A DNA stretch of 64,000 bases, taken from the IMG/VR virus record IMGVR_UViG_3300024324_000425, positions 1 to 64,000 of that record; one strand, written 5' to 3'. Both the position numbers and the translations under genes were made by a program. This document shows, in pieces, positions 3-11,354 of this stretch. How positions within the stretch are numbered: the first letter of the stretch is position 1; each line of letters begins with the position of its first letter. The notes under the pieces are model-generated. The model saw only the letters and a list, made by a program, of their open reading frames with translations. It did not search any database and was not told where the DNA came from. This DNA is from a virus.

Positions 3-1622
3 AAGACAGATGCTTTAATAGCACAAACCGCTTCTGAAACTTCAAAGAATAATGCTGTAGCTGCACAAACTGCTGCTGAAAGTGCTGAAGGTTTATCTCA
101 ACAATGGGCAACTAAGACCGATGGTGCTGTTGATGGTGGAGAATACTCTGCTAAGTATCACGCAAGTAATGCTAGTACCGATGCAGGTACAGCGAGTACT
201 AAGGCTACTTCAGCTACTGCTTCTGCTACAACTGCCACAACTCAAGCTGGCATATCAACTACTAAAGCTGGTGAGGCTTATTATTCTTATGCAGCTGCTA
301 CAACAAAAGCTTCAGAGGCTAATACCTCTAAGTTAGCTGCGGCAACTTCTGCTACAGCAGCATCAACATCTGCTAGCGATGCCGCGGATAGTGCATCTGA
401 AGCCACTGATAAAGCTGGTAACACTGCAGCGGATGCGATGGATTCTGCTGATTCGGCGGCAGAAGCTTTAAGTTCTGCTTCGGCAGCTGCAGCATCTGCA
501 AGTGCTGCTGCTTCTACATTGGCTGATAGATACACTAAGGCTGAGACTGATGCTAAGGTTGTAGAATTAAGTCCTCCAGCTACTAAAGCTCACGTTGATT
601 CTTTAGGTATCAATGCTGCTACATTAACTGGTTCTTTGCCTGCTATCTCTGGTGCTGCTCTAACAGATATAGATGCTGCTACAGTATCTACAACAGACCC
701 TAGTAGTCCTGCTCAAGGTGATATGTGGTTTGATACTACTACTGGTGTTAACTCTATGAAAGTATGGTCAGGCTCAGGTTGGGACCAAATGAGTAATAAG
801 TTTTCAGCTACAGGTGGTACAGAGACAACATACTCATCAGGTGGTGTTACTTATAAAGTTCATACATTTACATCATCAGGTACGTTCACTGCTGAATCTT
901 CAGGCACTGTTGACTATCTTGTAGTTGCAGGCGGTGGCGCGGGTGGTAACTTCGGTGGAGGTGGTGGTGCAGGTGGTATGCGTGTTATTACCAATACATC
1001 GGTATCAGCACAAGACTATTCAATAGTAGTTGGTGCTGGTGGTTCAGGAACTAGCGGACAAGGGCTTAATGGTAATAATTCTGTAGCACTAGGTAACACT
1101 TCTGCTGGCGGCGGTGGTGGTGGTTATCGTGGCGTTGGTGGTGGCGCCGGCACGGGTTCTGTTGGCTCTTCAGGTGGCTCAGGAGGTGGCGGTGGAAACG
1201 GTAACACCACAGGTGCTGCTGGTGGTTCAGGAACTAGCGGACAAGGCTTTAGTGGTTCTGCTGGTAGGAGTGGTACAGATGGAAGCAACCCTAATCATCT
1301 AGGTGGTGCTGGTGGTGGTGCTGGTGAAGTTGGCAACCTTTGGGTTGTTGGTGTAAAGGGTGCTGATGGTGGTGATGGTCTTAATAATAACTACAAGACA
1401 GGGTCAAATATTACATACGCTGGTGGCGGTGGTGGAACGACATACAATGCAACAGGTACTCGTGGTGCTGGTGGTGCTGGTGGTGGTGGTGCTGGTGGCT
1501 ACGGTACTTCTAATGGTATTAATGGTGTAACCAACCTTGGTGGCGGCGGTGGCTCTTCAGGTCATCAAGCTGCAAGTGGTTCTGGTGGCTCTGGTATTGT
1601 AATCATTCGTTACGCAGTTTAA
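3..1622 (+). CDS. Tail fibre / Gly-rich virion fibre protein (5' truncated by window)
   Basis: The frame of ORF 438..1622 is open back to nt 3. It has an Ala/Ser/Thr-rich stalk, a PSSPAQGDMWFDT motif and a C-terminal Gly-rich domain (YKVHTFTSSGTF...GGSGIVIIRY) typical of marine phage fibres. Confidence 0.8.
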   Translation, partial: KTDALIAQTASETSKNNAVAAQTAAESAEGLSQQWATKTDGAVDGGEYSAKYHASNASTDAGTASTKATSATASATTATTQAGISTTKAGEAYYSYAAATTKASEANTSKLAAATSATAASTSASDAADSASEATDKAGNTAADAMDSADSAAEALSSASAAAASASAAASTLADRYTKAETDAKVVELSPPATKAHVDSLGINAATLTGSLPAISGAALTDIDAATVSTTDPSSPAQGDMWFDTTTGVNSMKVWSGSGWDQMSNKFSATGGTETTYSSGGVTYKVHTFTSSGTFTAESSGTVDYLVVAGGGAGGNFGGGGGAGGMRVITNTSVSAQDYSIVVGAGGSGTSGQGLNGNNSVALGNTSAGGGGGGYRGVGGGAGTGSVGSSGGSGGGGGNGNTTGAAGGSGTSGQGFSGSAGRSGTDGSNPNHLGGAGGGAGEVGNLWVVGVKGADGGDGLNNNYKTGSNITYAGGGGGTTYNATGTRGAGGAGGGGAGGYGTSNGINGVTNLGGGGGSSGHQAASGSGGSGIVIIRYAV

Positions 1623-2542: not shown

Positions 2543-2550
2543 TATAAATA
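2543..2550 (+). promoter_or_regulatory. T4-type late promoter TATAAATA heading the accessory island
   Basis: Exact consensus, intergenic, 5 nt before ATG 2556. Confidence 0.75.
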
Positions 2551-2555
2551 GTAGT

Positions 2556-3290
2556 ATGATTGGAATTATTGGTTATGGAATGGTGGGAAAGGCTGTCGAA
2601 CACGGCTTTCCTAATACAACTCACATTATATCGGACCCTGCGTATAACAAGGTAAGTATAGCTGACGTTTGCAATGCAAATCCCGATGCTATCTTTGTCG
2701 CAGTACCCACGCCTGATGATAACTCAAACTACGAAATACTTAAGACAGTATTAGATGTCATATTTGACTCTGAATATACAGGATTAGTAGTTGTTAAGTC
2801 AACCATATTACCCCACCACTTAATACCATACGATGTATTATATAACCCAGAGTTCTTATCGGAAAAAACAAACCTCGAAGACTTTATTAATCCTCCAATG
2901 TTAATTATTGGCGGAGATAAAGCACAAGAATTAGCCGACATATATACTAAGTACTCTATTGTAAAAACTGATAAAGTATTCCTTACCTCTATTGAAAATG
3001 CAAGTCATATTAAATATATGATGAATACGTTTTATGCAATGAAGGTAACCTTTATGAATGAGATGTATGATGTTGTAGGTAAGGACAATTGGAAAGAAGT
3101 AACAGGGATATTAAAGCAACACCCTTGGATGGGAACACATCACTTTGATGTTCCAGGCCATGATGGTAAGAGAGGCTTTGGTGGTGCATGTTTTCCAAAG
3201 GATACTAAAGCCTTAGCAAATGAATATGATATTAAATTATTAAAGACAACGCTTGAATTAAATGAAAACTTTATTAGTCGTCCTATCTGA
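2556..3290 (+). CDS. UDP-glucose/GDP-mannose 6-dehydrogenase family (short; lacks the C-terminal domain)
   Basis: GxGxxG (GYGMVG), AVPTP, KST, NPEFL and catalytic GFGGACFPKD. Confidence 0.85.
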   Translation: MIGIIGYGMVGKAVEHGFPNTTHIISDPAYNKVSIADVCNANPDAIFVAVPTPDDNSNYEILKTVLDVIFDSEYTGLVVVKSTILPHHLIPYDVLYNPEFLSEKTNLEDFINPPMLIIGGDKAQELADIYTKYSIVKTDKVFLTSIENASHIKYMMNTFYAMKVTFMNEMYDVVGKDNWKEVTGILKQHPWMGTHHFDVPGHDGKRGFGGACFPKDTKALANEYDIKLLKTTLELNENFISRPI

Positions 3291-4254
3291 ATTATGTAAC
3301 TTAGACTGCTCATATTGTGATATGGAGAAGACATCTAATAAGTCGATCGATGTTGATTTATTCTTAAAAGAGTTTGAGTTATTAAGAGAAACATATCCTG
3401 AAGAGATCATTAAAGTAGACTTCTTTGGGGGTGAGCCTCTTCTCCAATTAGACAAAGTCAAATATATTATTAATCATATCAATGATGATAATATCAAATA
3501 CTTTATGCCGACCAACGGTTTAAAGATGACTAAAAAATCCAAGCAGTATCTTCTTGATAATAATGTAGAGTTGTCATTAAGCTTTGACGGGCTATGGCAG
3601 GACCTCAATAGGAAGCAGTTAACCGGTAAAGGAACCTTACAGCATTACTTAGAAAAGAAAGACCTGTTTAAAGGCATGAAGTGCCATACAATGATTAGCA
3701 CAGGCAACTATAATTTATTAGAAAATCATCTGTTTATTCTAAATGAATTTGGTATCGTGCCAGACATGACCCTCGTTAGGGATAGAGGTATATGGGACAT
3801 AGAATCTGTAACTGCTTTGAATAAAGGAATACAAGAGTTATTCGACTGGTACAGAGAAAATCCAAGTGAACCAATGCCATTCCTAATTCTATTCTATCTT
3901 AGACATTTCTTATTATATGAAAGTAAGAAGTATGTAGTTGAATCATGCGGTGCGGGCGTAGATCTGTTCTCATTCTCTGAAGATAAGGTTGTCCCTTGTA
4001 ATAGATTTAAAGATGACTTGGTTGCCACTAACAATATAACATCATATGTACACACGAGTGCGTGTAACACATGCTCTGTAAAGAACTATTGCAAGAAGGG
4101 TTGTTTATATGAGCAGATAAAGAATGAAGGTCCAATAGTCGACATATGTACCATATATAAATATATCTATAAAGCAATAGCGATTCTCGTAAAAGACTTA
4201 CGCGACAACAAAGACTTTAAAATGATTATAATGGAAGAGTTGAATAATGAATAG
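3262..4254 (+). CDS. Radical SAM/SPASM maturase 1
   Basis: CNLDCSYC, FFGGEP, SFDG; C-terminal C...PC...CxxCx5Cx3C...C SPASM motif. Confidence 0.9.
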   Translation: MKTLLVVLSELCNLDCSYCDMEKTSNKSIDVDLFLKEFELLRETYPEEIIKVDFFGGEPLLQLDKVKYIINHINDDNIKYFMPTNGLKMTKKSKQYLLDNNVELSLSFDGLWQDLNRKQLTGKGTLQHYLEKKDLFKGMKCHTMISTGNYNLLENHLFILNEFGIVPDMTLVRDRGIWDIESVTALNKGIQELFDWYRENPSEPMPFLILFYLRHFLLYESKKYVVESCGAGVDLFSFSEDKVVPCNRFKDDLVATNNITSYVHTSACNTCSVKNYCKKGCLYEQIKNEGPIVDICTIYKYIYKAIAILVKDLRDNKDFKMIIMEELNNE

Positions 4255-4465
4255 TATTGAAAATATAAATCAATCGATGTATAAGGCAAGCACTCATTTG
4301 ATTGAAGCCGCAAAGTACCTATCAGACACAGGATTCAAAGATGAAAGCATTTCTTTAATGTCTTTAGCCGATAAGCTATTAGATGTTATTGTACCTGAAC
4401 CAGAGAAGATTACTGAAGAGAAGATGAATAATATTATGGATGAGATTATAAATTATGGCAATTAA
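4247..4465 (+). CDS. Small helical hypothetical protein
   Basis: 72-aa ORF overlapping both flanking rSAM genes. Confidence 0.6.
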   Translation: MNSIENINQSMYKASTHLIEAAKYLSDTGFKDESISLMSLADKLLDVIVPEPEKITEEKMNNIMDEIINYGN

Positions 4466-5570
4466 AAACCAGTTTACACTTGAGATAACAACTACAGCTT
4501 TATGTAACCTTGATTGCACGTATTGCTTCGAAGGATTAAAGACCGATAAACAAAAGTTAGATGAAAAGGTTGATGTACTAAAATTAAGGATTCAAGAGTT
4601 GCTTGATTCCGAATGGTTTAATGACAAATATGACGAGCTTAACTTATCATTTTGGGGTGGTGAACCTACATTAAACTTTAAACTTGTTACAGAGATTATC
4701 CAAGCATATCAAGATAATCCAAAGGTAAGTTACCATATATACACTAATGCTTATGATCGTAATAGATTAAATAAGATTATTGATAATGTCGATACATCTA
4801 ACTTGCATATTCAAGTGTCGTACGACGGCAAAGATATTAATGATGTATTCCGTGTACTTAAAACCGGTAAAACAACCTCTGATAAAGTTGTAGAGAATAT
4901 TAAATACTTAAGCGATCGAGGTATATCAACATCGATGAAAGCTACTATGCCATTAACAGCAATGGGATCTTTATATTCATCTTGGAAAGACCATGAAAGG
5001 TTATATAAAGAATTGCCTAATGTTCGTGTAGCATACGCCCCGACCATTGACTATGTATCGGATATTGATATTAATGGATTGCCAGATCTAATAGATAGCT
5101 TTAAGCATGGTATGATGAAGATTGCTAAAGAAGAGATTGAATTCCATAAAGAACACAGTCACTTCTTATGTACTTGGTTTACGGAGAACGATGCAAAGAC
5201 CCATTGCTCATCTGGTGTAAACATGCACGCTATAGACGTTGATGGTAATTCTTATGCATGTCACGGGTCATTATATTCTCCTAACAAAGATGAGATGAAA
5301 GGTGGACATATAGACGATGATAGTTTTATAAATAATATTATAAAAATGAGTGATTCTTTAAGAGAACCAATCCAAGAGGTATCAGATATATGTAATGGTT
5401 GCGTAGCAACTACATGTATGATATGTCCGGTAATTTCTCTAGATAACTCGAAGAAAGATAATTTTAACGATAAGTGGACTGATCGTTGGGTCAACAACAT
5501 GTGTGGATTCTTTAAAGCATTTGGTGAGATTGATAGATCTGTTCAGTATTATATAAACAAGAGGAATTAG
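4455..5570 (+). CDS. Radical SAM/SPASM maturase 2
   Basis: CNLDCTYC, FWGGEP, SYDG; C-terminal CSSG...DGNSYAC...CNGCVATTCMIC...C. Confidence 0.9.
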   Translation: MAIKNQFTLEITTTALCNLDCTYCFEGLKTDKQKLDEKVDVLKLRIQELLDSEWFNDKYDELNLSFWGGEPTLNFKLVTEIIQAYQDNPKVSYHIYTNAYDRNRLNKIIDNVDTSNLHIQVSYDGKDINDVFRVLKTGKTTSDKVVENIKYLSDRGISTSMKATMPLTAMGSLYSSWKDHERLYKELPNVRVAYAPTIDYVSDIDINGLPDLIDSFKHGMMKIAKEEIEFHKEHSHFLCTWFTENDAKTHCSSGVNMHAIDVDGNSYACHGSLYSPNKDEMKGGHIDDDSFINNIIKMSDSLREPIQEVSDICNGCVATTCMICPVISLDNSKKDNFNDKWTDRWVNNMCGFFKAFGEIDRSVQYYINKRN

Positions 5571-5571
5571 T

Positions 5572-6240
5572 ATGGCCCAACCAGCAAATCATTGTTCAAA
5601 TCACGGCACCGGCACAAGCACGTGTTCTAATCATAGGTCATCATGTTCTACTAATCGAACACTATCTTTAAGTAGCGATTATGGCGTGCCTGGTCATGTC
5701 ATTAGAGCATCGGATATAGAGAACGTTAGAACTAGAATTAGAGATGAAATGTCTCGATGGAACTTACACTCAAATTACAATTATGCATTAAGATCGCCAA
5801 GCTCAATATCAAGTGGCTCATCAATCATTGATAATCACGCAGAAGACTTAGTACAAATGGTTAATGATATGAACGGCGGTGGAACATTTGGAGATCTTAA
5901 TGGTGATCTTATTGAAGATAGTCATTGGGATATTATCAGAGATCGATATAATGTAATTAGACAAAACTGTATCTGTAACTCGGATTGTGCATGTAATAAT
6001 GTTTGTGCTTGCCATAATGATTGTGCATGTAACTATTCAGATGAAAGATTGAAAAGAGATATCGAATTTATTGAAGAAAGAAATGGTCTTAACATATACA
6101 ACTTTAAATACTTATGGGATGATACTATTAAAACCGGTGTTATGGCACAAGAGATTCTTAAAAGTAAATGGAAAGATGCTGTACATCAAGATAGAAAGGG
6201 TTATTATATGGTAGACTATTCAATGCTACCTAAATTTTAA
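5572..6240 (+). CDS. Cys-repeat protein fused to a peptidase S74 intramolecular chaperone (putative rSAM substrate / virion fibre)
   Basis: AGAGG RBS; (CxC[NH]xx)x4 immediately before SDERLK (Ser156/Lys161); GVMAQE and VDYS S74 motifs. Confidence 0.85.
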   Translation: MAQPANHCSNHGTGTSTCSNHRSSCSTNRTLSLSSDYGVPGHVIRASDIENVRTRIRDEMSRWNLHSNYNYALRSPSSISSGSSIIDNHAEDLVQMVNDMNGGGTFGDLNGDLIEDSHWDIIRDRYNVIRQNCICNSDCACNNVCACHNDCACNYSDERLKRDIEFIEERNGLNIYNFKYLWDDTIKTGVMAQEILKSKWKDAVHQDRKGYYMVDYSMLPKF

Positions 6241-6254
6241 AACGGAGTTATATT

Positions 6255-6860
6255 ATGATATATGAATTAGCATTAGTGATTGATAAAGGTACTTTTTGGG
6301 AAGTAACCAATGTCACAAAGAATACATTAGACAACTTAGCAAATCGAAATGAGACGATGCTCAAGTTATCTTATATAGCTTATAAACAGATCAAAGCTGG
6401 ATTAAGTGAAAATAAGATAGTACAAATCACTAAGGAAATGATGACCGATGAGGTTATGCCTGGTGAAGTACGGTATATTACTATCGGTGAAGAAGATGAT
6501 ATAGTGGATCATCGTAATGCAGCCTTGGCTAAAGTAAGAATGCTAGCAAATCCAACATTAGCTTCTATTGCCGGTTTAACTATGTACGGATTCATTGTAC
6601 TTAACAATGATTTGGTTAATGCAGGATATGCTATTACCAACGACAATAGAGAAGAGAAATACTTATCTATTTTAGAGACCGGTGATGAAGAGCTTATTAA
6701 TAAATTAGAAGATTACTTAAACTATAAAGATGAGATTGAACGTGTGGCTCAACTAGAACGCAAGTTCTCGAAGTACGTAACTGAAATAAATAATGCACCA
6801 CTTGAGGATATAGAAGGTATTCAAAATAAATTCTTAGAAGACTTCTATGCGACATATTGA
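6255..6860 (+). CDS. Hypothetical protein
   Basis: GGAG RBS; 201-aa ORF coupled to the downstream gene. Confidence 0.7.
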   Translation: MIYELALVIDKGTFWEVTNVTKNTLDNLANRNETMLKLSYIAYKQIKAGLSENKIVQITKEMMTDEVMPGEVRYITIGEEDDIVDHRNAALAKVRMLANPTLASIAGLTMYGFIVLNNDLVNAGYAITNDNREEKYLSILETGDEELINKLEDYLNYKDEIERVAQLERKFSKYVTEINNAPLEDIEGIQNKFLEDFYATY

Positions 6861-7606
6861 TTGGTGTTGTCTATAAATGGCAGGTCCACAATAAACTAAA
6901 CGGATCGGTATTTTATGCATTCGAACATGCAGCATATCTAAACTGCCCTTTATACCTTGTTAATATTAATGATAAAGACTTAGCTCTTCTTAAGAGTATC
7001 TTTGACGCTAAATATAATATTCCTCTTGATATTATAACTCCTATAAGTTTAATCGATTTATATAAAATTAAACTTGATAAAACACTAATACTCGATATTA
7101 GAACTTTCACTGAGGTAAAAGAATTTCTATCTAATGATATCCATGTATTCTCAAACGAAGCACATGATATGTTCAGATATAAGAATGATCGAACAGTAAC
7201 ATACTACGGCTCATACAAATATCAGAACTATGATATATTTAACTATCTCAAATTAAACTTTAATATATTCCAAGAGTCTACTGGTGGAGAAGGTACATTC
7301 GTGTCAGGTCTAAGAGTGCCCAATTCAATGCCGAATCTTAATAAGCCATTACTTAAAAAACATGGTAGCGGGCAAGGGGATATATTTAACAAGATTGATA
7401 CTATACATTATATACATACACTACTTGATACGAACAATAGGATTATACCTGAAGCATTTTTCCACAATAAAAAAATTGTGATTGATGATCAGAACCCAAC
7501 ATTAATAGATTCAATAACATTTAGATATAATGATATAATGGAAAATGGTTTAGGTAACTATACATTAAGCAAGGAGGATAAACTTGTCAAAGCTATTACA
7601 ACTTGA
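6857..7606 (+). CDS. Putative divergent GT-B glycosyltransferase-like protein
   Basis: TTG start; C-terminal NRIIPEAFFHNKKIVI resembles the GT4 EA...GKPV motif; similar to the next ORF. Confidence 0.4.
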   Translation: MIGVVYKWQVHNKLNGSVFYAFEHAAYLNCPLYLVNINDKDLALLKSIFDAKYNIPLDIITPISLIDLYKIKLDKTLILDIRTFTEVKEFLSNDIHVFSNEAHDMFRYKNDRTVTYYGSYKYQNYDIFNYLKLNFNIFQESTGGEGTFVSGLRVPNSMPNLNKPLLKKHGSGQGDIFNKIDTIHYIHTLLDTNNRIIPEAFFHNKKIVIDDQNPTLIDSITFRYNDIMENGLGNYTLSKEDKLVKAITT

Positions 7607-8426
7607 TCCTAAGATAGACTTATGGTTGTCATATACATGGAGTAACAATGATCATGGTATTTGTGGTCATGTCTATGAGGTGATTGATTATTATATGATA
7701 CTCAAAGATCACTTCAACGTTGGTATATTATTCGCTGAGAAGTTTGAATTAGACCTATCTAAGTATGATTTTGAATTAGATGAAAGTGTTATTACGTACT
7801 GTGACAAACCTTCAGTAGTTAAAGGGACTAACATATTATTCGTTGATGGTGGTGTAAACAGTAATATGAATAAAACTCTGTTGTTTGATAATATATTCTA
7901 TTTTGCCTGTGGTAATAAAGAAGTTAAAGATAATGATAAAGATAACGTATACATATTGCAAGATGATAGGGTGTATGATCCAGTTAAAAAGAATGGTATT
8001 AACTATAAGAAAAGAATTTTGCTTGATAGACTAAATCCGGTTGTCGTACATGATGATAGACCGATGGTATATACCACCACTAACTGTAGAGAAACAGACT
8101 TAACAGGATTACCAAGTAACACATTAGTTGTATCTGATAAAGAGTATGAAGAATTCGAATGTGTTAAACCACCGGTTAAAGATATATTCGAAAAGTTTCA
8201 TACATTCATATATACACCCGTTGCGCGCAAGTGGGACTGCTCGCCAAGATTTATCGTAGAGTGCGAACACCACGGCAAAGAAGTTGAGTACCATAACATC
8301 GATTATTGGGAAGAAGATAAAGGGTTATACTGGAGAAAGTGGGATATTGATAACGATTTTGATTCGCTGTATTTAAAAGAAGATGATGAAATAATATGTA
8401 TAATCAAGCAAGTACTTTCAAATTAA
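7584..8426 (+). CDS. Putative divergent GT-B glycosyltransferase-like protein (paralog of 6857)
   Basis: AAGGAGG RBS and TTG start; DCSPRFIVECEHHGKEV aligns with the upstream paralog motif. Confidence 0.4.
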   Translation: MSKLLQLDPKIDLWLSYTWSNNDHGICGHVYEVIDYYMILKDHFNVGILFAEKFELDLSKYDFELDESVITYCDKPSVVKGTNILFVDGGVNSNMNKTLLFDNIFYFACGNKEVKDNDKDNVYILQDDRVYDPVKKNGINYKKRILLDRLNPVVVHDDRPMVYTTTNCRETDLTGLPSNTLVVSDKEYEEFECVKPPVKDIFEKFHTFIYTPVARKWDCSPRFIVECEHHGKEVEYHNIDYWEEDKGLYWRKWDIDNDFDSLYLKEDDEIICIIKQVLSN

Positions 8427-9367
8427 TACCTAGAGATGCGCCTATTAATAATAGGGCTAAGTTGGACACTGGTACCCATTGCAACTATAAATGTGACTTC
8501 TGTTATTATAAGACTCAATTAGATGTAGTAACAAATTTAGATGTAATCAAAGAACGAATCGATTACTTAGTTGAATGTGGTATAACTGAAGTGGATCTTA
8601 GTGGTGGTGAATCATCTATTCATAAAGAATGGTTTGATATATTAGACTATTGTACTGATAAAGGATTGTACATATCATGTTTAAGTAATGGATTTAAGTT
8701 CGCTAAGAAGGAATTCATTCAGAAGAGCTATAACCATGGATTAAGAGAGATTCTATTCTCTGTACACGGGTATGACACCACATCTCATGACATGTTGGTG
8801 GGTCGCAAGCATGCATATAAGAATATCATTAAAGCTATTGGGAATGCACAAGAGCTTGGTATGGTTGTCCGAGTTAATTGTACAATAACAGAATCCAATT
8901 ATAAACACTTAGATGAGTTCGTTCTAATGATGAATGAGCTTAAACCATTACAAGTAAACTTTCTCCCTTTAAACTATTGGGACGATGCTAAACAACAAAG
9001 TGCATTGAACTATAAAGAGGTCTCTCCGTATATCCATAAGGCTATTGATACATTAAACATTGAAGAGATTAACGTACGGTATATTCCATTCTGTTTTATG
9101 AAGGGATATGAGAAGCATGTTGTCGGATACTTCCAACATATATATGATGTTAAAGACTGGAACATTGCAGTGTATGATCATAGTATTAATCCTGAGGAAT
9201 ATAAGAAAGATAGAGTTAAAGCGATGTTTGATGCGGCCAAAAGAAACAGAATAAATACATATATTAAAAAGAAAGAGTGCTTGCAATGTAAGTACTACTT
9301 CGTATGTGATGGTATAGAGCATGATCAAGAAGTATTTCCAGAAGATGGCGAGAAGGTGTTATTATGA
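8396..9367 (+). CDS. Radical SAM enzyme 3
   Basis: CNYKCDFC, LSGGE, SVHG; C-terminal CLQCKYYFVCDG. Confidence 0.9.
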   Translation: MYNQASTFKLIPRDAPINNRAKLDTGTHCNYKCDFCYYKTQLDVVTNLDVIKERIDYLVECGITEVDLSGGESSIHKEWFDILDYCTDKGLYISCLSNGFKFAKKEFIQKSYNHGLREILFSVHGYDTTSHDMLVGRKHAYKNIIKAIGNAQELGMVVRVNCTITESNYKHLDEFVLMMNELKPLQVNFLPLNYWDDAKQQSALNYKEVSPYIHKAIDTLNIEEINVRYIPFCFMKGYEKHVVGYFQHIYDVKDWNIAVYDHSINPEEYKKDRVKAMFDAAKRNRINTYIKKKECLQCKYYFVCDGIEHDQEVFPEDGEKVLL

Positions 9368-10371
9368 ATAACATAAAACAGGTATTGAATCCTACAGACA
9401 TTGAATCTATAGAGCTAGGTTTAATTAATAAATGTGTGTTAGACTGTAGACTATGTTTAAGACAAGAGGCTATAACAGACAATTTGGAAAAAGATGTAGC
9501 AATTGACTTAGGTACTTTATCGAAATTTATGGATCAACTGCCTAATCTCAAACAGGTAGATTTAGTAGGTTCTATATCAGAACCAACCTTGCATAAACAA
9601 TTTTATGGTATCATAAAGTATATCAAGGGACGTAACTTAAAGATTAGACTATCAACTAACGGCAATACATTTTCGTTAAATTGGTGGGCTAATCTAGGTA
9701 AGTTAATGGATGAACGTGATATAGTAAGGTTTGCTGTTGATGGATCTACACAAGAAATACATGCTAAATACAGAGTCAATGGTAAACTGTCTAAGGTGTT
9801 AGCTTGTCACACCGCGTTTAAAAGTACATCACGGAGTATTACCGTGTTACAAAATATACTATTCGCATATAATATAGATGATCAAGATAATGTGCGGGCG
9901 TTATTTATGAAAGAAAACTTTGATATATGTGAATTTACACATACAGGTGGATTTGATTTCACAGGAACACCCGCCTTGATAAAGGATAATATACTCCCGG
10001 TTAAAGACTTATTATCAAGTTATAATAAACTCACCCGAGATCATACAGTTAATATGAAATTAAACTGCGCGGCCTTTATGGGGAAGTATGTATATCTAAA
10101 TCACTTGGGTTGTGTTCTACCATGTGATGATATGGAAGAGACTACATTCATCTCGCCCAGTAATAACATAACTATATATAATAATACTATAGATGAATGC
10201 TTCGCTCATGTAAATTCCATAATATCTAAAAGGTTTTTCTGCAACACATGTTCTGAGTGTTGTGGCCAGCTCCATCATGATATACGTAAAGAATACCCAA
10301 TTATACAATATAATAGAAATGGCGATTCAGAATCTTTGTATAAATTTAGAGAAGTGATGAATATAATATGA
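9364..10371 (+). CDS. Radical SAM enzyme 4 (twitch-type)
   Basis: CVLDCRLC, SEPTL, STNG, VDG; C-terminal C...GCVLPC...CNTCSECC. Confidence 0.85.
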   Translation: MNNIKQVLNPTDIESIELGLINKCVLDCRLCLRQEAITDNLEKDVAIDLGTLSKFMDQLPNLKQVDLVGSISEPTLHKQFYGIIKYIKGRNLKIRLSTNGNTFSLNWWANLGKLMDERDIVRFAVDGSTQEIHAKYRVNGKLSKVLACHTAFKSTSRSITVLQNILFAYNIDDQDNVRALFMKENFDICEFTHTGGFDFTGTPALIKDNILPVKDLLSSYNKLTRDHTVNMKLNCAAFMGKYVYLNHLGCVLPCDDMEETTFISPSNNITIYNNTIDECFAHVNSIISKRFFCNTCSECCGQLHHDIRKEYPIIQYNRNGDSESLYKFREVMNII

Positions 10372-11354
10372 ATATAAATGAAATACACACATTAGAGATC
10401 GGACTAATTAATAAATGTACTTTATCGTGCCCGTTGTGTTTGCGCAATGATAAAGTGTTAATGGGTAGGTTAAAAAAGAATGAAAGCTTGGATTGGCAAG
10501 TTTTAAGAAACTTCTTAGATACTCTAGTGAACTTAGAGAGGGTAGTACTTATGGGGGCAGTATCAGAACCAACGTTATATCCTGAGTTCTTTGAGTTGAT
10601 AAAATACCTAAAATGTCGTAACTTAAAAGTCAGATTATGTACGTCTGGGTCTACACATGACGAAGCTTGGTGGGCTAAGCTTGGACCGATGCTGGATGAA
10701 AATGATATCACAAGATTCCCGGTAGATGGGTCTACACAAGAGCTTCATTCTAAATATCGGAGAGGGTCTGTATTAAATGATGTATTAAAGTACCACGCTG
10801 CATTTAAATCAGCTAGTGCTTGTACTACTATTTTACAGCATATTATATTTCAATATAACGAACATGATAAAGATAATATAAGGGACATATACTTTAAAGA
10901 AAACTTTGATCTTTTAGAGATGAGTCCATGCTATGAACCCAATCTTAATATGAAAAACGTAGAAAAAGATGGGATCATTCCAATTAAAACCCTATTCAAT
11001 TATCAGCGATTGAAAAACCAAGCTGTTAATAATAAACCAAAAATATGGAAGGGATGTCCGGAAGCTAGAGATAATGCAGCATACTTAGGTCATAGGGGAT
11101 TACTAGTCCCATGCAATGAGCAGGAAGATGCACATTTCAAGATGGATACATTTGTAAATATATATGACAATAGTATTGATGAGGTTATTGAATATCTAAA
11201 CGTTATATTAAATGGTATAAACACGGATGATACATGTTTGAGGTCATGTACTGAAATGGGACAAAGAGAATGTTTCATTTTTCCAATAACCCAATATAAT
11301 AAAGTCGGTGATAAGTATGAGTTAATAGACTTTAGAGAGTGTATGAAACGATGA
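10368..11354 (+). CDS. Radical SAM enzyme 5 (tandem paralog of enzyme 4)
   Basis: CTLSCPLC; shares E-G-L-I-N-K-C, SEPTL, VDGSTQE and KENFD blocks with 9364. Confidence 0.85.
   Translation: MNINEIHTLEIGLINKCTLSCPLCLRNDKVLMGRLKKNESLDWQVLRNFLDTLVNLERVVLMGAVSEPTLYPEFFELIKYLKCRNLKVRLCTSGSTHDEAWWAKLGPMLDENDITRFPVDGSTQELHSKYRRGSVLNDVLKYHAAFKSASACTTILQHIIFQYNEHDKDNIRDIYFKENFDLLEMSPCYEPNLNMKNVEKDGIIPIKTLFNYQRLKNQAVNNKPKIWKGCPEARDNAAYLGHRGLLVPCNEQEDAHFKMDTFVNIYDNSIDEVIEYLNVILNGINTDDTCLRSCTEMGQRECFIFPITQYNKVGDKYELIDFRECMKR

What the first reader, a model, noticed from the sequence alone, without database searches (positions are those of the whole stretch)
5572..6240. (CxC[NH]xx)x4 core placed exactly at an S74 autocleavage site: candidate precursor with a self-removing follower domain
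Seen: residues 133-155 are CICNSD-CACNNV-CACHND-CACNY, followed directly by S156-DERL-K161. The N-terminus has CSNH twice plus CSTN, and the middle has three G-x-x-I-x-[AD]-x-[DH] helical repeats. The gene follows two SPASM rSAMs. Established: S74/ICA domains (e.g. endosialidase endoNF Ser911/Lys916) trimerise their partner and cleave off at the Ser. Inference: maturation gives a ~155-aa trimer ending in 8 Cys per chain (24 per trimer). These could be thioether cross-linked by the rSAMs, or they could bind a stack of metal ions or Fe-S clusters, like the HxH iron sites in the T4 gp37 needle. The protein is much smaller than typical S74-bearing tailspikes.
Basis: partly seen in the sequence, partly recalled or inferred. 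Interest (0 to 1): 0.9.

Follow-up and report, generated by a model that had tools for sequence, protein, structure and literature searches.

The report
Phage cysteine-array protein with radical-SAM maturases
A marine T4-like phage encodes a small protein that ends in four invariant Cys-x-Cys repeats followed by a self-removing folding domain; proteins of this kind nearly always sit just after a peptide-cross-linking type of radical-SAM enzyme, so the phage probably staples one of its own (likely particle) proteins chemically, though nobody has tested this.

Summary
ORF 5572-6240 encodes 222 aa. It has an N-terminal Cys/His motif, a confidently folded three-helix middle domain, the array CICNSD-CACNNV-CACHND-CACNY (aa 133-155) and a genuine Peptidase_S74 domain that starts at S156 (with K161).

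Seven Cys and Y155 are invariant in 149 homologues. Of 163 family members, 41 end naturally at ...CNY.

The main new result is comparative. A SPASM radical-SAM gene orthologous to 4455-5570 lies directly upstream in all 24 loci that have enough flank. These include 716-aa long forms and a Halobacteriovorax chromosome. In the reverse direction, 41 of 45 viral loci found with the enzyme carry a Cys-repeat protein next door.

A heptad-repeat relative, Campylobacter phage IBB_35 gene 3-9, was detected in virions by published MS.

Most likely the array is a substrate for ranthionine-type thioether cross-linking of a protein, as shown for CrpC/CrpA in 2026. A metal-binding array remains a live rival.

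This scan has already noted the same system on other DNA.

The parts
2543..2550 (+). TATAAATA, a T4-type late-promoter-like box in the intergenic gap before the first cassette gene
   Evidence: The genome-wide count of this motif is near chance (18 observed, 13 expected). Only its position, 6 nt before the ATG at 2556 and matching the boxes before the sheath and portal genes, is suggestive.
2556..3290 (+). UDP-glucose dehydrogenase-like gene, the first gene of the syntenic cassette
   Evidence: PHROG 9148, E 1e-36. It is syntenic in 10 of 12 IMG/VR loci.
3262..4254 (+). Radical SAM/SPASM enzyme 1 (330 aa). CxxxCxxC lies at aa 12-19 and there is no N-terminal extension.
   Evidence: PF04055 and Fer4_12. 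The best NCBIfam hit is PapB ranthipeptide maturase NF047865 at 84.9 bits, below the cut-off of 340. A SPASM CxxCx5Cx3C motif is visible in the translation.
4247..4465 (+). Conserved 72-aa helical ORF between the two radical-SAM genes. It may be a helper; its function is unknown.
   Evidence: There is no family hit. A homologue or a 60-100-aa ORF sits in the same slot in most loci.
4455..5570 (+). Radical SAM/SPASM enzyme 2 (371 aa), the gene most tightly linked to the Cys-array gene. Its stop codon lies 1 nt before the ATG at 5572.
   Evidence: PF04055. NCBIfam hits: PapB 92.5 bits over the full length, QhpD 75 bits, anSME 58 bits, TIGR04463 59 bits, all below their cut-offs. C17, C21 and C24 (the last two invariant, C17 in at least 90%) plus seven invariant SPASM Cys across 10 orthologues.
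5572..5658 (+). N-terminal Cys/His motif, aa 1-29 (C8xxH11, C18xxH21, C25xxN28)
   Evidence: C18 is present in 141 of 142 and H21 in 128 of 149 sequences. pLDDT is 50-61 for residues 1-20. The model shows a beta-bridge between residues 22 and 134.
5659..5967 (+). Middle domain, aa 30-132: three G-x-x-I-x-[AD]-x-[DH] plus helix units
   Evidence: AF2 with a 149-sequence alignment gives pLDDT 87-98. No convincing known fold was found (Z at most 6).
5968..6036 (+). Cys array, aa 133-155: (C-x-C-[NH]-x-x) x4 ending in Y155
   Evidence: Invariant columns. pLDDT stays below 50 for residues 141-152 even with the deep alignment.
6037..6240 (+). Peptidase_S74 intramolecular chaperone / autocleavage domain, aa 156-222 plus the stop codon, with S156 and K161
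   Evidence: Pfam and PHROG hits. BFVD ICA models match at rmsd 1.0-1.3 A over 65 columns. MyRF ICA 7dc3 gives Z 3.8 and 3gud gives Z 3.1.
6255..6860 (+). 201-aa protein of unknown function, the conserved downstream neighbour of the Cys-array gene
   Evidence: PHROG 25260, function unknown. Homologues follow the array gene in nearly all loci, including the long-form and bacterial loci.

Best explanation
The 222-aa protein is a protein-sized substrate of the adjacent SPASM radical-SAM enzyme(s). It is expressed from a late operon inside the tail-fibre / host-recognition region of a marine T4-like myovirus.

Inferred steps:
1. The newly made chain folds its helical middle domain.
2. Radical-SAM enzyme 2, perhaps with enzyme 1 and the 72-aa protein, abstracts hydrogen from residues near the array and joins Cys sulfur to side-chain carbons. 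These would be ranthionine-type thioethers, most simply Cys(i) to residue i+3, which is N, D or H at six of the eight array Cys. The N-terminal CxxH/CxxN units may be treated the same way.
3. The S74 domain trimerises the C-terminal segment and cuts itself off before S156.
4. This leaves a roughly 155-aa subunit whose C-terminus is a rigid, covalently stapled Cys array ending in Tyr.

The product is most likely a minor virion or host-recognition component.

What is shown: the sequence anatomy, the S74 membership, the natural ...CNY termini of relatives, and the bidirectional enzyme-array gene linkage.

What is inferred: that modification happens at all, its chemistry and order, trimer formation, and virion location.
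For: 1. Forward linkage. All 12 IMG/VR loci found with the protein have the enzyme-2 orthologue directly upstream. So do 6 metagenome loci with 500-716-aa long forms, where the enzyme is 30-33% identical. So do 4 further viral loci, with enzyme identity down to 29%, and 2 Halobacteriovorax chromosomes.
2. Reverse linkage. Of 45 IMG/VR loci retrieved with an enzyme-2 alignment (26-62% identity), 41 have a Cys-dense ORF next door. Most show the order rSAM - small ORF - rSAM - Cys protein - ~200-aa ORF. For background, the 64-kb window has one such ORF (itself) and 39 kb of bacterial flank has none.
3. Enzyme class. Both enzymes carry full SPASM cysteine sets. Their best NCBIfam match is the Cys-to-Asp thioether enzyme PapB, followed by QhpD and Cys-rich-peptide maturases.
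4. Precedent. CrpC, a SPASM radical-SAM enzyme, installs ranthionine links on the Cys-repeat protein CrpA at C-x-x-X motifs (PMC13692751). PapB links Cys to an Asp/Glu C-terminal to it in CSANDA six-residue repeats (PMC12373016).
5. Structure prediction. The array and residues 1-20 are the low-confidence parts of an otherwise very confident AF2 model. This fits a segment whose structure depends on modification or oligomerisation.
6. Mature end. 41 of 163 relatives stop at ...CNY.
7. Virion location. The IBB_35 orthologue (94% identical) of the heptad-repeat relative CP220 gp140 was detected in purified virions (PMC3322345 Table S2). P0206 bridges the heptad and CxCNxD types at profile E 3e-13.
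Against: - No chemistry was tested. Gene adjacency within a conserved multi-gene island (six radical-SAM genes plus sugar enzymes) could reflect operon inheritance rather than an enzyme-substrate pair.
- The enzymes score far below every NCBIfam cut-off, and no RiPP recognition element was seen.
- Non-Cys positions of the array (N136, D138, N142, V144, G152, N154, Y155) are almost invariant. This is unlike typical variable RiPP cores and fits a precise metal-binding or beta-helical structure equally well.
- N, H and D interchange at the i+3 positions, which is what metal ligands or hydrogen-bond donors would do.
- The same island sits in a bacterial chromosome with no phage structural genes nearby, so a virion role is not obligatory.
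- The virion MS evidence is 2.6% coverage of a distant relative.
- Direct profile comparison of CP220 gp140 with this family was not significant.
Confidence: 0.5

Rival explanations
1. The array is a metal- or Fe-S-binding module. After S74-driven trimerisation the CxC pairs, with the i+3 Asn/His/Asp and perhaps the N-terminal C18/H21, coordinate a stack of metal ions or a metal-thiolate cluster. This would rigidify the tip in the way HxH iron sites do in the T4 gp37 needle. Under this reading the neighbouring radical-SAM enzymes act on something else in the island, such as sugars or nucleotides, or only need the protein indirectly.
For: - The CxC-x3 periodicity is the spacing seen in plant type-1 metallothioneins (my own knowledge, not tested here).
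- Flanking N, D, H, G and Y are nearly invariant, and N/H/D are interchangeable at the fourth position of each repeat.
- The AF2 model brings residue 22 next to residue 134, placing C18/H21 near C133/C135.
- S74 domains normally follow trimeric stalks (Pfam PF13884 description).
- C141 is the only dispensable Cys, which a cluster would tolerate.
Against: - The SPASM enzyme stays immediately adjacent across 26-62% identity, across different array types (CxCNxD, CGxN, heptad CTCDCNY) and across different host lineages. This is hard to explain if the enzyme has no business with the array.
- AF2 usually models conserved Zn sites confidently, yet the array stays below pLDDT 50.
- Six-thiolate octahedral sites are not a known fibre motif.
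Confidence: 0.22
2. The array is a disulfide zipper. The Cys stay free in the reducing host cytoplasm. After lysis into oxic seawater they oxidise into intra- or inter-chain disulfides that lock the trimer. This would resemble Cys-stacked beta-helices or collagen cystine knots.
For: - The Cys count is even (8), the spacing is regular, and the protein would end up in an extracellular, oxic marine setting.
- A beta-helix is the AF3-predicted shape of the CrpA repeat region (PMC13692751).
Against: - This does not explain the conserved SPASM enzyme partner.
- It does not explain the 7-Cys variants.
- It does not explain the invariant Asn/Asp positions.
Confidence: 0.1
3. The protein is a scaffold or precursor for a diffusible product or cofactor, following PQQ/mycofactocin logic. 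The radical-SAM enzymes would modify the C-terminal ...C-N-Y. S74 or another protease would expose or excise it, and the island's glycosyltransferase-like and sugar enzymes would decorate it. The island's presence in a bacterium would then reflect a metabolic role rather than a virion role.
For: - The terminal Tyr is invariant.
- The island of sugar-modifying and GT-like genes travels with the pair into a Halobacteriovorax chromosome that shows no phage structural genes within 20 kb.
- Enzyme 1 gives a weak hit to the mycofactocin maturase.
Against: - Family members reach 790 aa with large inserted domains.
- Many have 1-4 extra residues after Tyr.
- A relative was found in virions.
- No dedicated excision peptidase was identified.
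Confidence: 0.08

Closest known systems
CrpC/CrpA of Methanococcus voltae (SPASM radical-SAM family TIGR04463; Dieter et al. 2026, PMC13692751)
   Same: A SPASM radical-SAM enzyme is encoded next to a protein-sized substrate with a conserved N-terminal part and a C-terminal Cys-repeat region. Ranthionine thioethers were shown experimentally at C-x-x-X (i to i+3) motifs. Enzyme 2 here hits TIGR04463 at E 3e-16.
   Different: - That hit is 59 bits against a cut-off of 525, so this enzyme is not a family member.
- CrpC has a fused RRE; none is seen here.
- The CrpA repeat is 17 residues long, not a CxC hexad.
- CrpA has no S74 domain and is not viral.
PapB/PapA (freyrasin) ranthipeptide system, NCBIfam NF047865
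   Same: This is the best-scoring named family for both enzymes, over nearly their full length. The substrate is a six-residue Cys repeat (CSANDA) with an Asn and an Asp after each Cys. The Cys donor lies N-terminal to the acidic acceptor (PMC12373016).
   Different: - Scores of 85-92 bits fall far below the cut-off of 340.
- PapA is a short leader-core peptide recognised through an RRE.
- Here the substrate is a folded 222-790-aa protein with two Cys per repeat and a self-cleaving follower.
Peptidase_S74 / intramolecular chaperone autocleavage domains of phage fibres and spikes (endosialidase, T5 pb1, phi29/GA-1 appendages, MyRF ICA)
   Same: It is a Pfam member above the cut-off. The Ser-x4-Lys motif sits at the domain start. 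The predicted fold matches ICA models. The domain is C-terminal.
   Different: - The part it would chaperone is only about 23 residues of Cys array following a small helical domain, not a long beta-helical stalk.
- Many orthologues dispense with S74 or keep only its first 12 residues.
Metal-stabilised trimeric fibre tips (HxH iron sites of the T4 gp37 needle; P2 gpV / phi92 gp138 spike apex)
   Same: There is a periodic X-x-X ligand motif near the C-terminal end of a phage fibre-region protein. This is a resemblance recalled from knowledge and was not tested here.
   Different: Cys replaces His, the spacing differs, there is no sequence or fold match, and those proteins have no radical-SAM partner.

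Membership tests
Peptidase_S74 (PF13884) intramolecular chaperone/autocleavage domain | Matches the Pfam model above its gathering score | tested here: met
   25.7 bits against 22 for aa 156-197; 28.3 bits in the own-genome search.
Peptidase_S74 (PF13884) intramolecular chaperone/autocleavage domain | Ser and Lys five residues apart at the very start of the domain (the catalytic dyad, as in endoNF S911/K916) | tested here: met
   S156 aligns to model position 1 and K161 to position 6. S is present in 123 of 132 and K in 121 of 122 homologues that have a tail.
Peptidase_S74 (PF13884) intramolecular chaperone/autocleavage domain | ICA fold | tested here: met
   The AF2 model has pLDDT above 90 over residues 161-222. 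BFVD ICA proteins match at rmsd 1.0-1.3 A over 65 columns, probability 1.00. Matches to solved ICA structures are weaker: 7dc3 Z 3.8 and 3gud Z 3.1.
Peptidase_S74 (PF13884) intramolecular chaperone/autocleavage domain | Trimerisation-dependent self-cleavage that releases the domain | not testable with these tools
   The complex predictor was unavailable. The only evidence is indirect: 41 of 163 relatives end exactly at the predicted cleavage point.
Radical SAM/SPASM peptide or protein maturases | CxxxCxxC radical-SAM cluster motif plus a seven-Cys SPASM auxiliary-cluster pattern | tested here: met
   PF04055 and Fer4_12 match both genes. In enzyme 2, C21 and C24 are invariant and C17 is in at least 90% of sequences; C251, C269, C313, C316, C321, C324 and C350 are invariant in 10 orthologues. 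Enzyme 1 shows CxxCx5Cx3C in its translation.
PapB-family ranthipeptide maturase (NF047865, equivalog) | Score at or above the curated cut-off (340 bits) | tested here: not met
   84.9 and 92.5 bits. The enzymes are of the same broad kind but are not members.
TIGR04463 (CrpC family) | Score at or above the curated cut-off (525 bits), plus a fused RRE | tested here: not met
   59.3 bits, covering only aa 6-174. The radical-SAM motif starts at residue 17, which leaves no room for an N-terminal RRE.
RiPP (ranthipeptide) precursor | Short leader-core peptide with a variable core, encoded next to its maturase | tested here: not met
   Adjacency is met. However, the product is 222 aa (up to 790 aa in relatives) with a folded domain, and the core is almost invariant. 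It works like a RiPP substrate but is not a typical one.
RiPP (ranthipeptide) precursor | Enzymatic thioether formation on the Cys | not testable with these tools
   This needs mass spectrometry of co-expressed protein.
Metallothionein-like / metal-binding fibre tip | Bound metal ions coordinated by the CxC pairs | not testable with these tools
   Only the spacing resemblance and the conservation pattern are available. No metal-aware model could be run.

The most novel reading that the evidence does not exclude
Many tailed phages, and at least one predatory bacterium, use RiPP-type SPASM radical-SAM enzymes to install thioether staples in a Cys-array cap on their own host-recognition or virion proteins. 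In this lineage a self-removing S74 domain acts as a built-in follower that trimerises and then exposes the stapled tip. This would be a new class of enzymatic post-translational maturation of virus particles.
Probability: 0.42. Interest if true: 0.85.

Novelty: new variant of a known kind. Interest (0 to 1): 0.72.

Why it matters
Radical-SAM thioether stapling is known for small peptide natural products. Since 2026 it has also been shown for one archaeal protein.

If phages use the same chemistry on structural or host-recognition proteins, this would add a covalent, enzyme-installed modification to virion assembly. It would explain the puzzling radical-SAM gene cassettes seen in pelagimyophage host-recognition clusters and in Campylobacter phages. 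It would also offer compact, self-processing, hyper-stable trimer caps for protein engineering.

The system can be tested in a cultured phage. Campylobacter phages of the CP220/IBB_35 group carry the heptad-repeat variant, and that protein has already been seen in virions.

Tried and rejected
I used the search for related loci instead.
The VIA wide search gave only weak helical matches for the middle domain (Z at most 6), so I do not name a fold.
- A profile search of solved structures by sequence gave only chance-level hits.
- A DNA search of isolate phages found no relative of the region. A protein search of isolate phages matched only the S74 part.
- The long forms were not found in IMG/VR. 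Pfam and PHROGs name no domain in them.
- The protein atlas returned only unnamed viral clusters.
- I looked for a correlation between loss of enzyme 1 and loss of the N-terminal Cys motif. Locus L010, the only one without a detectable enzyme 1, still has the motif, so there is no support.
- hhalign of CP220 gp140 against the family profile was not significant (probability 1.6%). The homology claim rests only on the shared repeat type, bridged by P0206, and on the shared enzyme neighbour.
- The idea that the Cys protein is an Fe-S donor for the many radical-SAM enzymes was rejected as unlikely, because of the S74 domain and the 500-790-aa long forms.
- Paper searches for phage, S74 and radical-SAM combinations found no description of this system.

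Full report
**What is there**

Window 5572-6240(+) encodes a 222-aa protein. A good ribosome-binding site (AAGAGGA) lies upstream, and the ATG sits one base after the stop codon of the preceding gene.

- CSNH (aa 8-11 and 18-21) and CSTN (aa 25-28) at the N-terminus.
- Three G-x-x-I-x-[AD]-x-[DH] units at residues 41, 82 and 110.
- The array C133-I-C-N-S-D / C-A-C-N-N-V / C-A-C-H-N-D / C-A-C-N-Y155.
- S156-D-E-R-L-K161 directly after the array.

The window comes from a 79.6-kb viral record of a marine T4-like myovirus. It carries terminase, sheath, portal, major head protein and DNA polymerase genes. The major head protein is about 50% identical to those of Pelagibacter phage HTVC008M and Methylophilales phage Melnitz.

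The gene lies in the fibre-rich variable region. [quoted passage not shown] A TATAAATA box sits just before the first cassette gene.

**The S74 domain**

- Pfam PF13884 matches aa 156-197 above its cut-off, and PHROG 6121 matches aa 152-220.
- The AF2 model of residues 161-222 is confident. It superposes on predicted ICA domains of many phage proteins at about 1 A. It matches the solved MyRF and phage ICA domains more weakly.
- S156 and K161 have the Ser-x4-Lys spacing of the catalytic dyad and are conserved wherever a tail exists.
- It is the only S74 domain in this record.

**The family**

A word-indexed search found 85 relatives. An exhaustive profile search, using forms that naturally lack S74, found 297 cluster representatives. 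All are environmental or viral and none is named.

In a 149-sequence alignment, C133, C135, C139, C145, C147, C151, C153 and Y155 are identical in every sequence. Conservation at other positions:

| Position | Sequences conserved | Substitutions |
|---|---|---|
| D138 | 142 | |
| N142 | 146 | |
| C141 | 137 | |
| N136 | 129 | otherwise H or D |
| H148 | 98 | otherwise mostly N or Y |
| D150 | 112 | otherwise almost all N |
| N154 | 130 | otherwise mostly H |
| C18 | 141 of 142 | |
| H21 | 128 | |

Six of the eight array Cys have N, D or H three residues downstream. The exceptions are C141 (V144) and C153 (S156). The N-terminal Cys show the same pattern (C8xxH, C18xxH, C25xxN).

**The mature end**

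Among 163 stored relatives that have the four-repeat array:
- 41 stop at ...C-x-C-[NH]-Y plus 0-2 residues.
- 43 carry exactly twelve more residues (SDxRLKxxIxYC).
- 79 carry an S74 or a larger ICA-type tail.

The predicted post-cleavage terminus is therefore the natural terminus of a quarter of the family.

Proteins of 460-830 aa share three elements with this protein. These are the N-terminal C-x-x-H...N-R element, the first helix, and the last helix plus array. They have a large insertion in between. The array is thus a portable C-terminal cap, not a feature of small proteins only.

**Structure prediction**

With 149 sequences AF2 gives a mean pLDDT of 86.
- Residues 26-132 form a compact three-helix domain at pLDDT 87-98. 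I could match it to no known fold.
- Residues 141-152 stay below pLDDT 50, and residues 1-20 are at 50-61.
- A beta-bridge between residues 22 and 134 places the N-terminal C18/H21 next to the start of the array.

The two Cys-rich segments are therefore the parts whose structure is not determined by the single unmodified chain.

**Gene neighbourhood, the main result**

Both upstream genes are SPASM radical-SAM enzymes. Their best named relative is PapB, followed by QhpD, Cys-rich-peptide maturases and anSME. All scores fall far below the curated cut-offs.

Forward search, starting from the Cys protein. The order is enzyme 1 - small ORF - enzyme 2 - Cys protein - 201-aa ORF:
- 12 IMG/VR loci carry enzyme 2 directly upstream, and all but L010 show the full order.
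- 4 more-divergent viral loci.
- 6 metagenome loci whose Cys protein is a long form, with enzyme 2 at 30-33% identity and directly abutting.
- Every locus with enough upstream sequence has the enzyme, 24 of 24.

Reverse search, starting from an alignment of enzyme-2 orthologues:
- 41 of 45 viral loci (26-62% identity) have a Cys-dense ORF beside the enzyme.
- The arrays vary: CxCNxD hexads, 7-Cys CGxN variants, and heptads of the CTC[DN]CNY type.
- The tails fall into the same three classes as above.

The background rate of such Cys-dense ORFs is one in this 64-kb window (the gene itself) and none in 39 kb of bacterial flank. This linkage holds in both directions, across lineages and across array types. 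I take it as strong evidence that enzyme and array belong together.

**Outside phages**

The whole island is present in two Halobacteriovorax assemblies, inside a 2.2-Mb contig. It comprises both SPASM enzymes, the small ORF, the Cys protein (ending ...CGCHY), the 201-aa ORF, four or five more radical-SAM genes, an amidinotransferase-like gene and GT-like and sugar-modifying genes. It is flanked by ordinary cellular-looking genes (ORFs I read by eye as chorismate synthase, MutY and a LysR-type regulator), and no phage structural genes lie within 20 kb. The module is therefore portable and does not strictly need a virion.

**Virion evidence**

Campylobacter phage CP220 has an enzyme-2 homologue, gp136, at 30% identity over 98% of its length. 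About 2.2 kb upstream lies gp140, whose annotated 21-bp repeats encode CNYCTCD x6. Its IBB_35 orthologue is gene 3-9 (94% identical). Gene 3-9 is listed among proteins detected by MS/MS in purified virions, at 2.6% coverage (PMC3322345).

A family member, P0206, combines heptad repeats with the SDxxLK tail and matches the family profile at E 3e-13. It bridges the two array types. Direct profile comparison with gp140 is not significant.

**Interpretation**

The closest experimental precedent is CrpC/CrpA. There a SPASM enzyme installs ranthionine thioethers at C-x-x-X motifs of a Cys-repeat protein (PMC13692751). PapB links Cys to a downstream Asp in CSANDA hexads (PMC12373016).

The array here has the same six-residue period, with Asn at position 4 and Asp at position 6. 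Each Cys has an i+3 partner.

My preferred reading (confidence about 0.5) has three steps:
1. The SPASM enzyme or enzymes staple the array, and possibly the N-terminal motif.
2. S74 trimerises and removes itself.
3. The product is a minor virion or host-recognition component.

The metal-binding reading (about 0.2) is not excluded. It is favoured by the near-invariance of non-Cys positions and by N/H/D interchange. The two readings could also coexist. Disulfide locking and a cofactor-precursor role are less likely.

**Relation to earlier notes of this scan**

Look-ups made after my own analysis show that the same enzyme-array pairing has been reported by this scan on other genomes, with the same reading. 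One of those notes supplied the CrpC/CrpA reference, which I then read myself.

**Limits**

Noticed in passing
L037/L038 (Halobacteriovorax sp. contigs) with flanks L041/L042: The complete phage island is chromosomal in a marine predatory bacterium. It includes the SPASM pair, the Cys protein, the 201-aa ORF, GT-like genes, rSAM paralogues expanded to four in tandem, an amidinotransferase-like gene and SDR, PIG-L, DegT and ugd genes. The flanking ORFs look like ordinary cellular genes (read by eye as chorismate synthase, MutY and a LysR-type regulator). A 526-aa ORF with a prepilin-like N-terminus lies in the same cluster (L041 12387-13967).
   Followed up: partly
relatives P0044-P0077, P0087-P0134: 43 family members end in a fixed 12-residue tail, SDxRLKxxIxYC. 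This is the first strand of S74 without the rest of the domain, usually ending in Cys. It is conserved across diverged sequences, so it is probably functional. Its role is unexplained; it could be a recognition tag, provide acceptor Asp/Glu, or allow trans-cleavage.
   Followed up: no
window 6255-6860: A 201-aa protein with no known family (only PHROG 25260, function unknown) follows the Cys-array gene in almost every locus, including long-form, heptad-type and bacterial loci. It is a likely partner of unknown role.
   Followed up: partly
L013 161-1765 (Campylobacter phage CP220 gp140) and L123 4999-6603: The only intragenic repeat reported for CP220/CPt10 (21 bp x6; PMC2853527) encodes CNYCTCD heptads, followed by further xCxC[ND] motifs. 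The gene lies near an rSAM2 homologue and the RnlA 'tail fibre attachment catalyst'. Its IBB_35 orthologue was found in virions.
   Followed up: partly
window 9364-10371 and 10368-11354: These are tandem paralogous radical-SAM genes (best NCBIfam hit: tungsten-cofactor maturase type, weak). The same paralogue is present in 3-4 tandem copies in L014, L036 and Halobacteriovorax.
   Followed up: no
window 6857-7606 and 7584-8426: Two ORFs with no Pfam family lie here. Only the second, 7584-8426, has PHROG hits (24441 and 14526, function unknown). They are syntenic with the cassette in most of the viral and bacterial loci examined. The homologue of the first is duplicated in L011 and L031.
   Followed up: no
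window 3-1622: This is a Gly-rich fibre-like ORF that is open at the window start (PHROG 2295, E 1e-55, with a weak tail-fibre-assembly hit). It is followed by a small conserved ORF (1636-1989) and a holin-like membrane protein (1996-2427), immediately before the cassette.
   Followed up: no
L034 8124-8414: A second small ORF lies directly after the Cys-array gene. It repeats only the N-terminal Cys/His motif of the family (…CSPFCYSYSPCESSHRSARP…) and has no array.
   Followed up: no
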